From Eubacteriales bacterium (GTDB taxonomy: Bacteria > Bacillota > Clostridia > Oscillospirales > CAG-272): a stretch of 55,814 nucleotides of DNA. The notes beneath the pieces are model-generated. The model was not told the DNA's origin and did not search any database. It worked only from the letters and a program-made list of their open reading frames with translations. Each line of letters opens with the position of its first letter. The stretch's first letter is position 1. Both the position numbers and the translations under genes were made by a program. Location: the NCBI GenBank assembly GCA_045656885.1, contig JAZORZ010000063.1, positions 1 through 55,814 of the forward strand. The letters run 5' to 3'. Positions 39,955 through 46,168 of the stretch are shown here, one piece after another.

Positions 39955-41436
39955 ATGAAAAACGGTTTTCTCAAAGCGCTCGGTTTTGATCCTGTGAAGA
40001 AGCAAACAAGCATCAAGACCGAAATCGTCGCAGGTATTGTTACGTTCCTTGCAATGGCGTACATCCTGACGGTTAACCCCGCACAGATCCTTGTGAGCCC
40101 TGATATGGGCGCATACTGGCCCTCTGTATTCATCGCAACCGCTCTTGGCGCAATCATTGGTACCCTCTTGATGGCGTTCTTGGCAAAAATGCCTTTGGCG
40201 CAAGCTTCCGGCATGGGTCTGAACTCCCTGCTTGGCGGTCTCGTTGCGCTTTGGGCAGCCGACACCTACGGTGTAAGATTCACCCTCGGTCAGGCATTTA
40301 TGATGGTTCTTATCTCCGGTGTTCTGTTCCTTGCTCTTACTCTTATCAAAATCAATGGCAAGTCCTTCCGTGAGCTGATCTTCGACGGTATGCCCGTTGC
40401 AATTAGAAGCTCCATTTCCATTGGTATTGGCTTGTTCATTGCTTACATTGGTTTCCAAAATGCAGGCATTATTGTTGCTGACCCCTACGTTCAGGTTGGT
40501 CTTGTTAACTTCACCAGCTTTGAGGCATGCAAAACCGCAATCGTTGCATTCATCGGTTTGTTCCTCATTGCAATTCTCGATAAGCTCAACGTTAAGGGCT
40601 CCGTTATTCTCGGTATCCTTGGTGCAACCCTGATCGGTATTCCCTTTGGCGTTACCGATCTCGCAGTTCTCGCAGGCGACGGCGCAGTTTCTTGGAAGTT
40701 CTGGGAAAACTTCGCTAACTTCTTCGCAGGAGAGAACTCTGTGTTCCTTTCTTTCGTTGACGTATTCAAGAACGGTCTCGTTCCCGAGGGCGGCAGCATA
40801 TTCACCGTAATCATGGTTATCATCACCATGTGCATGATCGATATGTTCGATACCATGGGTACCATTGTTGGTTGCTGCGGCGGTAACAGAATTCTCTCCG
40901 ACGAGAACAACAAGCCCTACAACTACGATAAGATCATGATCTCCGATGCAATTGCAACCTGCACAGGCGCAATGCTCGGTACCTCCACCGTTACCACATT
41001 CGTTGAATCCGGTGCAGGCGTATCTGCAGGCGGCAGAACCGGTTTGACCTCGTTCACCACTGCTTCCATGTTCTTCTTGGCAATGTTTGCAATGCCCGCA
41101 TTTGCAGTTATCCCCGGTGCGGCAACCGCAGCAGCTCTGATTTACGTTGGCGTCCTGATGATGAAGAACAACATTAAGAGTGTTGACATGGACGACGCTA
41201 TCAGTGCAACCTCTGCATTCCTTACCATCGTTGTAATGCTTCTCTCTTACTCCATCACCAAGGGTATCGGTATCGGTATGGTAACCTACACCGTTATGTC
41301 TGCTATCGCATACCTCATCGGCCTTATTACCTACGCTATCAACAAGAAGGAAAAGCCCGTATGGAAGGTTTCTGTTGTTGCCCTTATCGTAACGGCTCTG
41401 TTCTGCGTATACTTCTTTGTTCCCGTAGCATTCTGA
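39955..41436 (+). CDS. NCS2/AzgA-family purine permease
   Basis: TEIVAGIVTFLAMAYILTVNP, DMFDTMGT, GTSTVTTFVESGAGVSAGGRTGLT. Confidence 0.92.
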   Translation: MKNGFLKALGFDPVKKQTSIKTEIVAGIVTFLAMAYILTVNPAQILVSPDMGAYWPSVFIATALGAIIGTLLMAFLAKMPLAQASGMGLNSLLGGLVALWAADTYGVRFTLGQAFMMVLISGVLFLALTLIKINGKSFRELIFDGMPVAIRSSISIGIGLFIAYIGFQNAGIIVADPYVQVGLVNFTSFEACKTAIVAFIGLFLIAILDKLNVKGSVILGILGATLIGIPFGVTDLAVLAGDGAVSWKFWENFANFFAGENSVFLSFVDVFKNGLVPEGGSIFTVIMVIITMCMIDMFDTMGTIVGCCGGNRILSDENNKPYNYDKIMISDAIATCTGAMLGTSTVTTFVESGAGVSAGGRTGLTSFTTASMFFLAMFAMPAFAVIPGAATAAALIYVGVLMMKNNIKSVDMDDAISATSAFLTIVVMLLSYSITKGIGIGMVTYTVMSAIAYLIGLITYAINKKEKPVWKVSVVALIVTALFCVYFFVPVAF

Positions 41437-41504: not shown

Positions 41505-42503
41505 ATGAAATCCAAAAGACAATTCAAAATCATTCTTTGCATCGTGGCAGTGGCAGTCGGCATCAGCGCAGGACTTGGATTGTTCCTTTGGCGACGCTCT
41601 CTTGAAAACGCCCCTGAAGAGCCACCGGAGGACGAGATATACGAACTGAATATGAATACCGATTTTCCCGCGCCGCAAAATCTTCCCGACGGAGAAGGGA
41701 AGCGGGTGCGCGTGATCCTGCTTTTGGGGCAGAGCAATGCCACAGGGTGCTCGCTGACGAGCTATCTCGAGCAAGGCGTGGGAGTCGAAAAGTATGCGGA
41801 ATATGAAAAAGGATATTCCTCTGTGCTCATCAATTACTGCCTTGACGATCACAAATACACCTCAAACGGTGAATTTGTGCCGGTTGACCTGACCTGCGCT
41901 GCCGGAGAGGGCTACTTTGGTCCTGAGGTTGGCATGGCGGAGGTTTTGTCGGCGGCGTATCCCGACGAGACGGTCGTGATCCTAAAATACACGATGTCGG
42001 GCTATTCCTTGCATTATCATTGGCTCTCACAAGGGGAGCGCGGCTCTATCTATCGGGCGTGCATGGCGTTTCTTCAAACCTATCTGCAGGCCTTGAAGAA
42101 TCAAAACTACGATGCGCACATCGGTGCTGTCTGTTGGATGCAAGGGGAGTCGGATACCACCGACTTTAAGGCAGCACACTATTACGAGAATCAAACCAAA
42201 TTCGCATCCTATCTGCGTGAGGATCTTGCCCCCTACGCCGAGGAGCGCGGCATCTATTTTATCGATGCGGGTATTTCCAACAGTCCTTACTGCGAGCCCG
42301 CTTACCCCGCCATCAATGAGGCAAAGGTGGCATTTTCAAAGGACTCGGCGCTGAATCTCTATTTCCCCACCATTGAGGCGGGCTTTACCGTTCACAAAGA
42401 GCCCGAGGGCTCTCCCGATTGGGGACATTACGATGCGATGAGTGAGCTGGCGCTTGGGCATTTGTTTGGCGAACAGGTGATACATTCCTATCAGTCGCGA
42501 TAG
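41505..42503 (+). CDS. Membrane-anchored sialate O-acetylesterase (SASA)/CE6-like esterase, paralog 1
   Basis: LLGQSNA, FGPEVG, WMQGESD, DWGH. Confidence 0.85.
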   Translation: MKSKRQFKIILCIVAVAVGISAGLGLFLWRRSLENAPEEPPEDEIYELNMNTDFPAPQNLPDGEGKRVRVILLLGQSNATGCSLTSYLEQGVGVEKYAEYEKGYSSVLINYCLDDHKYTSNGEFVPVDLTCAAGEGYFGPEVGMAEVLSAAYPDETVVILKYTMSGYSLHYHWLSQGERGSIYRACMAFLQTYLQALKNQNYDAHIGAVCWMQGESDTTDFKAAHYYENQTKFASYLREDLAPYAEERGIYFIDAGISNSPYCEPAYPAINEAKVAFSKDSALNLYFPTIEAGFTVHKEPEGSPDWGHYDAMSELALGHLFGEQVIHSYQSR

Positions 42504-42554
42504 GCAAGTGAACTGGGCAGCATTGCGACCGCAAATAAAAAAGGAGACAGACAG

Positions 42555-43538
42555 ATGAAAAAAGCACTGAAAATTGTTTTGTGCATTGCTTTAGCACTTT
42601 TGGTTTTGGGGACGGGTATTGGACTGCACGCTTGGTGGCGTTCCGTCAAATGGCCGAATAAGGCGATTGAAATGAAAATGCATACCGATTTTCCCAAACC
42701 CGAGAATTTGCCAAACGGCAACGGCAAGCGCGTTAAGGTGATTCTTTTGATGGGGCAGAGCAACGCAACGGGCATTGGCCGCATCAAATATTTAGAAAAG
42801 AACACCACCCCCGAGCAGTTTGCCAAATATGAGAGCGGTTTTGATACGGTTCACATCAACTATTGTGTGGATAATCATACCAACTGCTCAAACGGAGAGT
42901 TTGTAAACGTTGATCTGGGTTGCAGTGTTTGGGATGACGTCTTTGGCCCCGAGGTCGGCATGGCAGAAAAATTCAGCGAGGCGTGGGGTGACGAAGAGGT
43001 CATCATTCTCAAGTACACCTATTCGGGCACGTCTTTGTATTATCAATGGTTGAAGTACGGTGAGCGCGGTGACATCTACAAGGCAATGAAGGAATATGTT
43101 GATACCTATATGACAGCTCTGCGTGACGCGGGCTACGATGCGCGCATCGGTGCCGTTTGCTGGATGCAGGGCGAATCCGACTCCTTTGAGCCCGTTGTTT
43201 ACAGACGTTACTACAAAGCGCAAAGCAATTTCCTTTCCTATTTGCGAGAGGATTTTGCCGAGTATGCCGAGGATGGCGGCATCTGCTTTATCGATGCGGG
43301 TATTTCGGATAGCCCCTGCTGGCCCGGCTACCAAGCCGTAAACAGTGCCAAAAAGAGAATGGCGGAGGAATCGGATATGAACTATTATTTCTCCACCATT
43401 GATGCAGGCCTTGAATGGGGCGTTGAGCCCGAAGAATCCCCCGACCTTGCGCACTACGGTGCGATGAGCACGCTCAAGCTCGGGCATTTGTTTGGCGAGT
43501 ACGTTATCGAAGCATACCGCGCGCACCATACAAAGTAA
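42555..43538 (+). CDS. Membrane-anchored SASA/CE6-like esterase, paralog 2
   Basis: LMGQSNA, FGPEVG, WMQGESD, DLAH. Confidence 0.85.
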   Translation: MKKALKIVLCIALALLVLGTGIGLHAWWRSVKWPNKAIEMKMHTDFPKPENLPNGNGKRVKVILLMGQSNATGIGRIKYLEKNTTPEQFAKYESGFDTVHINYCVDNHTNCSNGEFVNVDLGCSVWDDVFGPEVGMAEKFSEAWGDEEVIILKYTYSGTSLYYQWLKYGERGDIYKAMKEYVDTYMTALRDAGYDARIGAVCWMQGESDSFEPVVYRRYYKAQSNFLSYLREDFAEYAEDGGICFIDAGISDSPCWPGYQAVNSAKKRMAEESDMNYYFSTIDAGLEWGVEPEESPDLAHYGAMSTLKLGHLFGEYVIEAYRAHHTK

Positions 43539-43545
43539 AAAATAC

Positions 43546-43574
43546 TTGACAAACCCATAAAAATGTGTTATACT
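43546..43574 (+). promoter_or_regulatory. sigA promoter upstream of the riboswitch
   Basis: TTGACA-17-TATACT with an extended TG. Confidence 0.75.
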
Positions 43575-43600
43575 GTTTGGGCAAAGCAGAATGCTTTGCC

Positions 43601-43671
43601 TCAATAGGTATATTCTTGCAATATGGGCAAGTGTTTCTACAAACCACCGATAATGGTTGACTACCGGATGA
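43601..43671 (+). ncRNA. Purine riboswitch aptamer, guanine-type (C at the specificity position)
   Basis: P1 GGTA/TACC; P2 CTTGC-AATATGG-GCAAG; J2/3 GTTTCTAC; P3 AACCA-CCGATAA-TGGTT; J3/1 GACT. Confidence 0.9.
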
Positions 43672-43698
43672 ATTTTCCGTAGTCAACCATATTTTTTT
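43653..43698 (+). terminator. Riboswitch expression-platform terminator overlapping the aptamer
   Basis: ATGGTTGACTAC (43653-43664) pairs with GTAGTCAACCAT (43679-43690), followed by a T7 run. Confidence 0.85.
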
Positions 43699-43718
43699 AC
43701 ACAGGAGAAATTACCCCA

Positions 43719-44318
43719 ATGAATCTTTATCTTGAAATTTTCGGTTATATCGGCACGGCTTTTGTTATTGTTTCCATGATGATGACCTCGGTTATCAAAT
43801 TACGCATTTTCAATATGTGCGGCGCCCTCATCAGTCTTATTTACGCCGTTTGCGTTAACACCTGGCCCGTGGCGGTACTCAATGCCTGCTTGCTTTGCAT
43901 CAATCTTGTGCAAACGCTGCGGCAACTGCGCCACAAGTCGGATTTTACCGATCTGAAACTTGATGCCGATGATCTCACCGTACAACACTTTTTGTCGGTG
44001 AACGCAGAGGACGTTCAAAAATATTTTCCAAATTATCGCCTGCAAGCACATCAGGAAACCGAGATTCATATGATATACGTAGAGTGCGAGGCGGTCGGCA
44101 TTTTGGTGGGCACACGTGCAGTTGACGTGTATCGTATCGAGATGGATTACGTTGTGCCTAAATATCGTGATATTGCGGTTGGCAAATTTTTGTTTCCGCA
44201 ATTAAAAGAGCAGGGCGTCAATCTGCTCACAGCCGCAAGCGTCTGCCGTGAGCACGATCAATACTTGCAAAAGCTTGGCTTTAGAGAAGACAGCGGAATT
44301 CTTTTGAGAGATCTTTAA
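43719..44318 (+). CDS. YgjV-like membrane protein with a C-terminal GNAT-like domain
   Basis: IFGYIGTAFVIVSMMMTSVIKLRIFN at the N-terminus; MDYVVPKYRDIAVGKFL...YLQKLGF at the C-terminus. Confidence 0.75.
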   Translation: MNLYLEIFGYIGTAFVIVSMMMTSVIKLRIFNMCGALISLIYAVCVNTWPVAVLNACLLCINLVQTLRQLRHKSDFTDLKLDADDLTVQHFLSVNAEDVQKYFPNYRLQAHQETEIHMIYVECEAVGILVGTRAVDVYRIEMDYVVPKYRDIAVGKFLFPQLKEQGVNLLTAASVCREHDQYLQKLGFREDSGILLRDL

Positions 44319-44335: not shown

Positions 44336-46033
44336 ATGAAATTATTGATAGATGGAATCGAAACCACAGCAAGAGAGGGACAATCGCTTTTGGATATTAC
44401 CCAAGAGATGGGCTTGCATGAAGGCAAGCTTTCCACCGACCCCCTTGCGGCAAAAATTGCAGGACGTGTGTTTAACCTCAACTACATCCCCGTGCGCGAA
44501 AAGGACATCAAAGAGCGCGAATCGATGCGAAAGGCAATGGCGGCATCGGGTGGCGTAATCCGTTTGCTCCGTTACAGTGACCCCGTCGGCCGCGACGTTT
44601 ACAAGAGAACCGCGCAGTTCGTCCTCTTTTTGGCAGTGCGCCGTCTGTGGCCCAATGCACGTGCAAAAATGAGTTGCGTGGTTGGCTCGGGTACTTATTT
44701 TAAGGTTGAAGCTGCGGACTTTGATGCTAACCGCCTTGGAGAAGAAGTGAATCGCATCGTTGCCGAGAATATTACACTCCACCGCCGCAGAATGCCCACA
44801 ATCGAGGCGATTCAAAAATTTGAAAGCCAAGGAGAATTCGACAAGGCGCGCCTTTTGGGTTACCGCAAAAAAGAGAGAATAGACCTTTATGAAAGTGGCG
44901 ACTTTGCCGATTATTACTATGGCGAGATGGCACCCTCTACGGGCTTTTTGCGCTCCTGGGATATCATTCCCGCACCCGAGGGCTTCATTTTTGTATTCCC
45001 CGATGTTAACGATCCCGAGCGTGTATCCGAATACCGCGAGATGCCTAACCTCTTTTCGGTTTACACCGAGGGCAAGCGTTGGTGCGAGCTGATGGGCTGC
45101 GAAACGGTTGCCGACCTCAACGAGCTTGTCAAGTCGGGCGGCGTGCGCGAGCTGATCCGCGTCAACGAGGCGTTACACGAAAAGCGCTTTTCGCAAATTG
45201 CCGATATGATCTGCGAGAGAGGAGCCCGGGCGGTTCTTTTGTCGGGGCCGAGCTCCTCGGGCAAGACCACCTCTGCCAACCGCCTCGCAACTCAGTTGCG
45301 CGTGCACGGCAAAAAGCCGATTTTGATGAGTCTTGACGATTACTACCTCGACCGCGATCAAATCCCCGTAGGGCCTGACGGTAGCGTTGACCTTGAGCAC
45401 ATCAACACCATTGATGCCGAGCTCTTTGCCGCTCACCTCGGTCAGCTGCTCGCAGGAGAAGAGGTGGAGATCCCCACCTTCAACTTCAAAAAGGGAAAGA
45501 GGGAATGGGTAGGACACCGTATGCGCCTGTGCGACGATACCGTCATCATTGTAGAGGGCTTGCACGCGCTCAATCCCGTTCTGCTCCCCCGTGAGCTGGA
45601 TGCGGGCAAGGTGTTCAAAATGTACGTCAGCCCTCTGCTGCCCCTCAATCTTGACGACCACAACCGCATTGCAAGCAGATATTTGCGCCTGCTTCGCCGC
45701 ACCGTGCGCGACTACGAAACAAGGGGCTCCTCGGTTCAGCAAACGCTTTCCATGTGGGATTCGGTTCGCCGCGGCGAGGAAAGATGGATCTTCCCCTACC
45801 AAGAGAACGCCGACGTTATTTTCAATAGCTCCACGCTCTACGAGCTGGCAGTGCTCAAGCGTCACATCTTCCCGCTTTTGCAGGTCATCGGTGCCGATGA
45901 CGATTGCTACGACCAAGTACGCGCAATGGTCAAAATTCTCAACTATATCTACGAGGCAGACGTTGACGATGAAATTCCGCCCACAAGCATCGTGCGCGAG
46001 TTCATTGGCGGCAATAGTTTTTACCGCAAATAA
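44336..46033 (+). CDS. Nucleoside-kinase-like protein (ThrRS-N/TGS-like domain fused to a PRK/uridine kinase P-loop domain)
   Basis: LLSGPSSSGKTT, SLDDYY, IVEGLHALNP, RLLRRTVRD...RG, MWDSVRRGEERWIFPYQENAD. Confidence 0.85.
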   Translation: MKLLIDGIETTAREGQSLLDITQEMGLHEGKLSTDPLAAKIAGRVFNLNYIPVREKDIKERESMRKAMAASGGVIRLLRYSDPVGRDVYKRTAQFVLFLAVRRLWPNARAKMSCVVGSGTYFKVEAADFDANRLGEEVNRIVAENITLHRRRMPTIEAIQKFESQGEFDKARLLGYRKKERIDLYESGDFADYYYGEMAPSTGFLRSWDIIPAPEGFIFVFPDVNDPERVSEYREMPNLFSVYTEGKRWCELMGCETVADLNELVKSGGVRELIRVNEALHEKRFSQIADMICERGARAVLLSGPSSSGKTTSANRLATQLRVHGKKPILMSLDDYYLDRDQIPVGPDGSVDLEHINTIDAELFAAHLGQLLAGEEVEIPTFNFKKGKREWVGHRMRLCDDTVIIVEGLHALNPVLLPRELDAGKVFKMYVSPLLPLNLDDHNRIASRYLRLLRRTVRDYETRGSSVQQTLSMWDSVRRGEERWIFPYQENADVIFNSSTLYELAVLKRHIFPLLQVIGADDDCYDQVRAMVKILNYIYEADVDDEIPPTSIVREFIGGNSFYRK

Positions 46034-46168
46034 CCGAAACAAAAGATTTCCCCAATGTCAATCGATGTTGGGGAAATTTTGTTTTTTCGCCTATCCGCTT
46101 GCAATCCCCCTCAAAAAATGGTATACTATTCTCAACGACCAACACCGCGCGGCGGAAAAGGAGATTTT

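What the first reader, a model, noticed from the sequence alone, without database searches (positions are those of the whole stretch)
43546..43718. Guanine-type purine riboswitch wired as an ON switch
Seen: a canonical aptamer core (J2/3 GTTTCTAC, and C at the position equivalent to Y74). The 12-bp terminator stem uses the aptamer's own P3-3'/P1-3' strand (43653-43664 with 43679-43690, then T7), so aptamer and terminator are mutually exclusive. J1/2 and L3 deviate slightly (TATAT rather than TATAA; CCGATAA rather than CCGTAAA). Established: C74 aptamers bind guanine/hypoxanthine and are mostly OFF switches on synthesis or uptake genes, whereas the overlapping-terminator ON design is known from the adenine pbuE switch. 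Inference: the downstream genes are induced by excess guanine or a related purine or nucleoside.
Basis: partly seen in the sequence, partly recalled or inferred. Interest (0 to 1): 0.7.

Follow-up and report, generated by a model that had tools for sequence, protein, structure and literature searches.

The report
Guanine ON riboswitch controlling orphan kinase
This RNA leader holds a standard guanine-type sensor whose own strand forms the transcription stop hairpin, so guanine is predicted to switch the downstream genes on rather than off, and its most constant target is a widespread kinase-like enzyme of unknown substrate that likely acts on a nucleoside other than uridine.

Summary
Confirmed. 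RF00167 matches 43586-43683 (48 bits, cut-off 37). The pocket is canonical guanine-I (U22, U47, U51, C74), and none of the junction changes that define the published variant classes is present. The terminator (43653-43664/43679-43690, T7 at 43692-43698) consumes P3-3', C74 and P1-3', so ligand should give read-through.

The wiring is conserved. 49 of 54 related leaders in front of these genes have it, with compensatory pairs at three positions. Other purine aptamers rarely do: 0 of 11 in the genus, 1 of 32 in the order, 0 of 28 in the class.

The operon is a three-helix YgjV-GNAT protein plus a ThrRS-N-terminus/uridine-kinase-fold fusion. All 16 genus genomes with this kinase carry the switch. 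The kinase lacks the uridine-determining His, the genome has a separate canonical Udk, and the Thermotoga homologue made no UMP in print.

ON purine switches are published (pbuE, guanine-II, xanthine-II, 2'-dG-III, 8-oxoG). What I did not find in print is a canonical guanine-I pocket wired ON to this kinase. Binding and polarity are untested. The scan reported this system before on other DNA (three notes).

The parts
43546..43574 (+). sigma-A/70-type promoter, TTGACA-17-TATACT with TG extension; start site predicted near 43580
   Evidence: 11 of 12; a similar promoter lies 9-59 nt before P1 in most relatives with enough upstream sequence
43580..43600 (+). 9-bp 5' leader hairpin without U tract; optional, weaker or absent in relatives
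43607..43665 (+). purine aptamer with guanine-I pocket: P1 43607-10/43662-65 (4 bp); J1/2 43611-13; P2 43614-19/43627-32; L2 43620-26; J2/3 43633-40 (U47=43634, U51=43638); P3 43641-46/43654-59 (A54.G72 open); L3 43647-53; J3/1 43660-61 (C74=43661)
   Evidence: RF00167 48 bits; pairs checked; family counts
43653..43698 (+). intrinsic terminator overlapping the aptamer: 12 bp plus a 3-bp nucleating cap, then A and T7
   Evidence: conservation and compensatory pairs
43703..43708 (+). ribosome-binding site AGGAGA, outside the terminator
   Evidence: sequence
43719..44318 (+). 199-aa protein: three predicted membrane helices of the YgjV family (residues 3-71) plus a GNAT-fold domain that is dispensable in relatives
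   Evidence: PF10688 25.4 bits > 23.5; model pLDDT 80.8; GNAT Z 12.7, rmsd 2.7, 118 aligned; 24 of 41 complete homologues behind the switch are 110 aa or shorter
44336..46033 (+). 565-aa fusion of a ThrRS N-terminal (TGS plus editing-fold) region with a uridine-cytidine-kinase-fold domain; Gly387 at the His site that determines uridine use
46043..46087 (+). terminator closing the two-gene operon; the next gene (HAD hydrolase) has its own promoter-like site at 46099-46127

Best explanation
The leader carries a canonical guanine-type aptamer overlapped by an intrinsic terminator, and guanine (or hypoxanthine) binding is predicted to block that terminator and turn on a two-gene operon whose kinase-like product likely salvages a non-uridine nucleoside. 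Shown: the aptamer, the mutually exclusive terminator, the promoter, the operon layout and the conservation of this wiring. Inferred: the aptamer folds first during transcription. Without ligand, the 3-bp cap nucleates and the 3' arm invades the weak 4-bp P1, C74 and P3, ending the transcript near 43698. With guanine bound in time, P1 is held and polymerase reads through. The terminator fold is about 14 kcal/mol more stable than the aptamer's secondary structure, so control must be kinetic, as in pbuE. Most inferred step: the kinase traps purine nucleosides (guanosine or inosine) as monophosphates when guanine is plentiful, with the three-helix protein as an accessory carrier (about 0.35; cytidine kinase about 0.3; non-kinase role about 0.35).
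For: RF00167 over cut-off. All 17 genus members found by Rfam, not by my pattern, keep GTTTCTAC and C74 and lack insertions. Overlapping terminator in 49 of 54 de-duplicated leaders before ygjV and/or the kinase (17 of 17 in the genus, 32 of 37 in metagenomes); shuffled downstream sequence passes 6% of the time. Controls: 0 of 11 other genus aptamers and 1 of 32 order aptamers, 0 of 28 class rows. Aptamer changes at positions 71, 72 and 73 are matched in the terminator arm in 5, 3 and 1 of 48 sequences; 0 of 500 shuffles reached that, and slid registers pair 17-54% against 88%. Only 20 nt separate the U tract from the start codon, and the scan found no promoter-like site there, so the genes need read-through. 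Aptamer plus cap -12.4 against terminator plus P2 -26.5 kcal/mol; P1 is predicted at 0.9 for transcripts ending at 43671-43677 and is lost from 43680. The kinase is the most constant target: 16 of 16 genus genomes with the full-length gene have the switch, and four have it directly before the kinase with no ygjV. Gly387 replaces the His/Gln required for uridine activity (PMC5614712). A canonical Udk with His lies on another contig (266 bits > 180). The Thermotoga homologue formed no UMP from uridine (PMC10248530).
Against: No binding, termination or expression data. 5 of 54 leaders failed the terminator test (L063, L067, L075, L087, L089); L075 shows no terminator at all. The pair counts were made only on the 49 leaders that had passed the test, so their pairing percentage is partly circular, and kin are not independent. 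In the strand-swap test only 10 of 16 variant strands paired better with their own arm than the consensus strand did. The very short P1, short P2 and open 54.72 pair may weaken or alter binding. A 65%-identical kinase in another family has no switch (L135), nor do 8 of 8 distant kinases within 1.5 kb, so the link is lineage-specific. One genus genome has the switch and ygjV without the kinase (G079, 76% complete). The genome already has DeoD and Hpt for guanosine salvage. Gly at the His site still allows cytidine use with a higher Km in the Thermus enzyme.
Confidence: 0.8

Rival explanations
1. The aptamer is a specificity variant: the short P2, 4-bp P1 and open 54.72 pair loosen the junction so that it responds to guanosine, inosine or 2'-deoxyguanosine, the likely substrate of the kinase, and switches ON.
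For: The three features are nearly fixed in the subfamily and rare in controls: 19-nt arm in 17 of 17 against 4 of 58; non-C-G at 54.72 in 16 of 17 against 9 of 58; 4-bp P1 in 15 of 17. The 2'-dG-III class keeps a uridine at the sugar edge and was argued to sense nucleosides from gene context (PMC9295807; PMC12342879).
Against: Position 51 and J2/3 nucleotides 47-51 set base against nucleoside selectivity (PMC6847200), and here they are the guanine-I sequence in 17 of 17. Variation at position 24 and the proximal P2 pairs is the known 'tunebox' that changes kinetics and affinity (PMC7707468). 54.72 mismatches also occur in ordinary switches (9 of 58).
Confidence: 0.12
2. The switch is guanine-ON, but the kinase is a cytidine (pyrimidine) kinase or a regulatory ATPase, induced to balance pyrimidine pools or translation when guanine is in excess.
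For: The closest folds are uridine-cytidine kinases. P-loop, D334, E354 and the arginine cluster are conserved. Thermus Y93G-type mutants keep cytidine activity. The Thermotoga protein hydrolysed ATP in the presence of uridine, and its authors favour a role in translational autoregulation.
Against: The genome's canonical Udk should already handle cytidine (inference). Riboswitch ligands usually match the pathway of the target (argument used in PMC9295807). The other purine switches examined by family scan control purine PRTases, permeases, PnrA-like proteins or guanine-deaminase-like genes, apart from an uncharacterised FAD protein.
Confidence: 0.45
3. The hairpin is a constitutive attenuator, or the terminator of the upstream esterase transcript, and the aptamer is a decaying relic with no ligand response.
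For: The terminator dominates at equilibrium (P1 probability 0.0 in the full leader). P1 is only 4 bp. No terminator lies between the upstream stop codon (43538) and the promoter.
Against: The pocket is invariant in 17 of 17 genus members while P2 changes by compensatory pairs (4 of 6 P2 pairs). The terminator arm tracks aptamer changes. A near-consensus promoter travels with the element across different upstream genes. Terminator dominance is expected for kinetic ON switches such as pbuE.
Confidence: 0.07

Closest known systems
Bacillus subtilis pbuE adenine riboswitch (transcriptional ON switch)
   Same: The terminator is built from aptamer sequence and forms by strand invasion through P1 and P3 from a small nucleating hairpin; kinetic control (PMC7707468, passages and section 9).
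   Different: C74 instead of U74; 4-bp P1, 6-position P2, 3-bp cap; controls a kinase-like gene and a three-helix membrane protein.
Guanine-I riboswitch (xpt-pbuX type, RF00167 with C74)
   Same: U22, U47, U51, C74, the A23-G46-C53 and U22-A52 layers, two L2-L3 G-C pairs, no junction insertions.
   Different: Opposite predicted polarity. Guanine-I switches commonly reduce expression (PMC9295807), and the five B. anthracis examples are OFF (PMC5393184, passages). Shorter P1 and P2, open 54.72, atypical target.
Guanine-II riboswitch (Paenibacillus PRT; ON)
   Same: Guanine ligand, ON logic through an overlapping terminator, salvage-type target.
   Different: Guanine-II has one extra base in J2/3 and three or four in J3/1 (PMC12445698, passages); none here. 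Different gene and lineage.
8-oxoG, xanthine-II, 2'-dG-I/II/III variants
   Same: Same scaffold. In 8-oxoG the terminator competes with P1 and P3 as here (PMC10556655); xanthine-II and 2'-dG-III are predicted ON.
   Different: They lack U47, carry G51 or C51, or have remodelled junctions. This element has none of these.
Thermotoga maritima TmUK (three-domain ThrRS/uridine-kinase fusion)
   Same: Same domain description; no uridine kinase activity found (PMC10248530, section 6).
   Different: Not compared by sequence here. The window's protein belongs to a tight subclade, 55% or more identical within it and about 35-43% to the wider family, that sits behind a riboswitch.

Membership tests
Purine riboswitch RF00167 | Score above the Rfam gathering cut-off over the whole model | tested here: met
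   48 bits against 37, model 1-102
Purine riboswitch RF00167 | Three-stem junction with L2-L3 G37-C61 and G38-C60 pairs | tested here: met
   Pairs present in the window; P2 covaries at 4 of 6 pairs; loop pairs 48 of 48 but invariant and partly fixed by my pattern
Guanine-I class | U22, U47, U51, C74 and unmodified junction lengths (3, 8, 2) | tested here: met
   Window sequence; 17 of 17 genus members; definitions from PMC9295807, PMC6847200
Guanine-I class | Binds guanine and hypoxanthine with high affinity | not testable with these tools
   Needs in-line probing or ITC
Guanine-I class | Typical, not defining: OFF polarity on synthesis or uptake genes | tested here: not met
   Terminator overlaps the aptamer; the target is a kinase-like gene
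Adenine riboswitch (pbuE/add) | U74 | tested here: not met
   C at 43661; C in 17 of 17
pbuE-type ON expression platform (works like) | Terminator needs aptamer P3-3'/J3-1/P1-3' and has a nucleating hairpin | tested here: met
   PMC7707468
Guanine-II class | One-base insertion in J2/3 and three or four bases in J3/1 | tested here: not met
   J2/3 is 8 nt and J3/1 2 nt; definition
Xanthine-II class | U51G plus J2/3 and J3/1 insertions | tested here: not met
   U51 at 43638; definition
2'-dG-I and 2'-dG-II classes | C51 (class II also has a two-base J3/1 insertion) | tested here: not met
   U51; definition
2'-dG-III class | Changed J2/3 (C36, A37, A38, A42, U43) and U61; nucleoside hydrolase gene | tested here: not met
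   J2/3 is GUUUCUAC; definition
8-oxoG class | Deletion of U47; 8-oxoguanine deaminase gene | tested here: not met
   U47 at 43634; definition
Uridine kinase Udk (TIGR00235, NF004018) for the 565-aa protein | Score above the equivalog cut-off | tested here: not met
   78.6 against 220.3 and 84.3 against 180
Uridine kinase Udk for the 565-aa protein | His or Gln at the Thermus-93/human-117 site | tested here: not met
   Gly387; G in 104 of 121 aligned, Q in 5, H in 0; site placed by sequence alignment; rule from PMC5614712
YgjV family PF10688 for the 199-aa protein | Pfam gathering score | tested here: met
   25.4 against 23.5
SemiSWEET/PQ-loop three-helix transporters for the YgjV domain | Triple-helix-bundle fold and dimer transport | tested here: inconclusive
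   Three helices predicted; fold lists were filled by the GNAT domain; the domain was not folded alone

The most novel reading that the evidence does not exclude
A guanine-induced, canonical-pocket ON riboswitch marks the substrate class of a large orphan enzyme family. The ThrRS-N/uridine-kinase-fold fusions (1,386 clusters at E<=1e-30, short relatives included), misnamed uridine kinases, are purine nucleoside kinases, and YgjV three-helix proteins are their dimeric purine carriers, forming an uptake-and-trap salvage route in gut Clostridia.
Probability: 0.25. Interest if true: 0.75.

Novelty: new variant of a known kind. Interest (0 to 1): 0.5.

Why it matters
It shows that an unmodified guanine-I pocket can be rewired to ON by the expression platform alone. 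The published guanine-family ON switches I read about all came with altered pockets. It gives a natural series of about 50 leaders for studying strand-invasion switching with a minimal 4-bp P1. It also gives a direct substrate lead for a widespread kinase-like family whose Thermotoga member failed as a uridine kinase, and for the unassigned YgjV membrane family. Genome annotation that reads every C74 purine riboswitch as OFF would get these operons backwards.

Tried and rejected
Variant classes (guanine-II, xanthine-II, 2'-dG-I/II/III, 8-oxoG, adenine) were rejected on their defining junction features.

J1/2 TAT as a distinguishing mark was rejected: 23 of 58 controls have it. A U24-A54 pairing like that in 2'-dG-III was considered; the two positions do not covary by inspection.

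The 5' hairpin is not essential: it is absent or weak in many relatives.

Wide distribution was not found. The exact pattern hit 2 of 401 class genomes, one being the own genome and one an ordinary switch. Model R1 found no member among 150 other class genomes (best 55.8 bits, against 76-91 for three near members). The RF00167 hits fetched from the order sample (29 loci, out of 39 non-self matches) and the 27 class loci have no ygjV or kinase nearby.

No RNA holder was listed for expression; read laying was not used.

A transporter-family link for YgjV was not found by sequence against solved structures, by the Atlas (only YgjV clusters, score 0.80 or less) or in the paper listing. The domain was not folded alone, so this is not evidence against.

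The long-window fold scan of controls was noisy and is used only as a lead. The first kinase-site regex failed and was redone (15 of 16 genus loci parsed).

Three papers were not held.

Full report
Observation. Rfam finds three elements above cut-off in the window: two tRNAs and RF00167 at 43586-43683, 48 bits against 37. It is the only purine riboswitch match in the 2.0-Mb genome. A promoter TTGACA-17-TATACT lies at 43546-43574. In xpt numbering (recalled, and consistent with PMC9295807 and PMC6847200) the aptamer is P1 43607-43610/43662-43665, J1/2 UAU, P2 43614-43619/43627-43632, J2/3 GUUUCUAC 43633-43640, P3 43641-43646/43654-43659 and J3/1 AC with C74 at 43661. Its 5' arm contains P3-3', C74 and most of P1-3'.

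Energetics. The aptamer's secondary structure with the cap is -12.4 kcal/mol and terminator plus P2 is -26.5. In stepwise folding, P1 has probability 0.9 for transcripts ending at 43671-43677, falls at 43680, and the terminator reaches 0.95 by 43692. These are equilibrium calculations without tertiary contacts or ligand. They fit a short window for binding followed by strand invasion, the mechanism described for pbuE, where a nucleating P4 hairpin and the P1 sequence govern switching (PMC7707468; passages and section 9 part 1). The U tract ends 20 nt before the start codon and the scan found no promoter-like site in between, so the genes depend on read-through.

Is the wiring selected? In the 78 genomes of the genus, RF00167 gave 28 matches in 26 genomes. 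Seventeen precede ygjV and/or the kinase, three an FAD-dependent protein and eight a PnrA-like lipoprotein. A pattern scan of metagenomes gave 45 loci. Of these, 38 precede ygjV and/or the kinase: 20 both, 11 ygjV only and 7 kinase only within the DNA held, and many contigs are short. I grouped by downstream gene and then tested for a duplex that pairs C74, has energy of -7 or lower, and is followed by a T tract. After dropping one duplicate (L066), 49 of 54 passed (17 of 17 genus, 32 of 37 metagenome), against 6% for shuffled downstream sequence. Three of 13 leaders with other or truncated downstream genes also passed. Controls: 0 of 11 other genus aptamers, 1 of 32 aptamers in 29 order loci and 0 of 28 rows in 27 class loci. 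On an alignment of the 49 passing leaders (48 distinct), terminator pairs are 87.7% standard against 17-54% for slid registers. Both-sided changes occur at positions 71 (5 sequences), 72 (3) and 73 (1), nine cells against 2.1 in shuffles. Caveats: the alignment holds only leaders that passed, relatives are not independent, the metagenome pattern fixed part of the aptamer, and the strand-swap test favoured the own arm in only 10 of 16 variant cases (289 of 378 in all cross comparisons).

Which class? All 17 genus members, found without my pattern, have GTTTCTAC and C74 and no insertions. That is the guanine-I pocket. It fails the defining features of guanine-II and xanthine-II (PMC9295807 parts 1-4 of 6; PMC12445698 passages), 2'-dG-I/II (PMC6847200 passages), 2'-dG-III (PMC12342879 abstract, part 3 and section 17) and 8-oxoG (PMC10556655 parts 1-2 of 7). 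The subfamily has its own peripheral signature. The 25-45 arm is 19 nt in 17 of 17 (4 of 58 controls; 21 nt in 38). The 54.72 pair is not C-G in 16 of 17 (9 of 58 controls), and P1 is 4 bp in 15 of 17 (6-9 bp in 44 of 58 controls, with 14 ambiguous parses). J1/2 TAT is common in controls (23 of 58) and belongs to the known P2 tunebox. I read these features as tuning for easy invasion, and give about 0.12 to a changed ligand.

Targets. A terminator at 46043-46080 and a separate promoter-like site for the next gene bound a two-gene operon. Gene 1 has three predicted helices of family YgjV and a GNAT-fold domain (Foldseek E 6e-7; Z 12.7, rmsd 2.7, 118 aligned). The GNAT part is dispensable: 24 of 41 complete homologues behind the switch are 110 aa or shorter, by a rough length estimate. 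Gene 2 joins the ThrRS N-terminal region to a uridine-cytidine-kinase fold (model pLDDT 94.6) and scores far below the Udk cut-offs. The full-length gene is in 16 of 78 genus genomes, and all 16 have the switch, 15 directly upstream on the same contig and one across a contig break. Four have no ygjV in between. Exceptions: G079 has switch and ygjV without this kinase, and G100 has ygjV with no switch. Outside the genus, a 65%-identical kinase and eight kinases at 36-39% have no switch within 1.5 kb.

What the kinase does is open. P-loop, D334, E354 and R451/454/455/458 are conserved. The site that aligns with Thermus Tyr93/His is Gly387: G in 104 of 121 family members, His in none. Uridine activity needs His or Gln there, while Gly mutants keep weaker cytidine binding (PMC5614712 passages). 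The genome has a canonical Udk with His, plus Hpt, Upp, an Apt-like protein, DeoD and GuaB. The Thermotoga three-domain homologue gave no UMP and only ATP hydrolysis with uridine (PMC10248530 passages and section 6). The family is large: 1,386 representatives at E<=1e-30, a count that includes short relatives. A guanine-induced purine nucleoside kinase is my preferred guess (about 0.35). Cytidine kinase and a regulatory ATPase are together more likely than that single guess.

Known or new. ON switches on this scaffold are in print: pbuE, guanine-II (shown in a reporter), 8-oxoG, and the predicted xanthine-II and 2'-dG-III. Guanine-induced expression is therefore not new. I found no paper on a canonical guanine-I pocket wired ON, or on a purine riboswitch before this kinase or YgjV. 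The searches were made, plus passages of PMC3766115, PMC5393184 and PMC9481103 and one supplement file of PMC9295807. The library lacks most subscription papers, Weinberg 2017 was not held, and supplementary regulon tables of PMC3766115 were not examined, so the association may be listed there. Guanine-deaminase-like genes in the same order also seem to have ON-type wiring on canonical pockets, so rewiring may be recurrent. Earlier notes of this scan describe the same system in other genomes. They are not independent evidence, and I took the uptake-and-trap idea from one of them.

Verdict. A real, conserved, predicted guanine-ON riboswitch: a new variant of a known kind. Its main value is the substrate lead for an orphan kinase family. 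Interest 0.5.

Noticed in passing
L161, L162 (tandem), L163, L165: Canonical C74 aptamers before guanine-deaminase-like genes (TIGR02967 331-364 bits, under the 375 cut-off). Long hairpins take aptamer strands and end at a U tract (for L161, L162, L165; L163 by eye). Probably a second, independent ON wiring.
   Followed up: partly
L159:1430-1650: Tandem purine aptamers before an NCS2-type permease, with a long hairpin that pairs the second aptamer and ends at a U tract; possibly an ON switch on a permease.
   Followed up: no
L020, L021, L022, L062: Related short-P2 purine aptamers sit about 35 nt before an uncharacterised 455-aa FAD-dependent protein (PF21688). L062 has an overlapping terminator; the other three have none and may act on translation.
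   Followed up: partly
L067, L072, L082, L085, L089, L091: Sub-type with A72 or G72 in which the hairpin extends to pair P3-5' with the GGAGG ribosome-binding site, suggesting combined or translational ON control.
   Followed up: partly
L121-L134 (for example G030:C17:314141-314998): A second homologue matching only the kinase half (residues about 270-560, about 30% identity, E about 1e-31 to 1e-38) occurs in most genus genomes; not found in G000 by tblastn.
   Followed up: no
L055, L061, L079: The switch is followed by a short ORF (L061 begins like a rubredoxin, recalled and not tested) or about 300 nt before ygjV; in L055 and L057 an oppositely oriented gene resembling ornithine carbamoyltransferase (recalled) follows.
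   Followed up: no
window 41505-43538: Two tandem SASA-family (PF03629) esterase paralogues lie directly upstream, the second ending 7 nt before the promoter with no terminator.
   Followed up: no
window 39955-41436: An NCS2-type xanthine/uracil-family permease (PF00860) lies 2.1 kb upstream without a riboswitch of its own.
   Followed up: no
window 43580-43600: A perfect 9-bp hairpin at the predicted transcript start, present in weaker form in close relatives; may shield the leader from mispairing or from 5' decay.
   Followed up: partly
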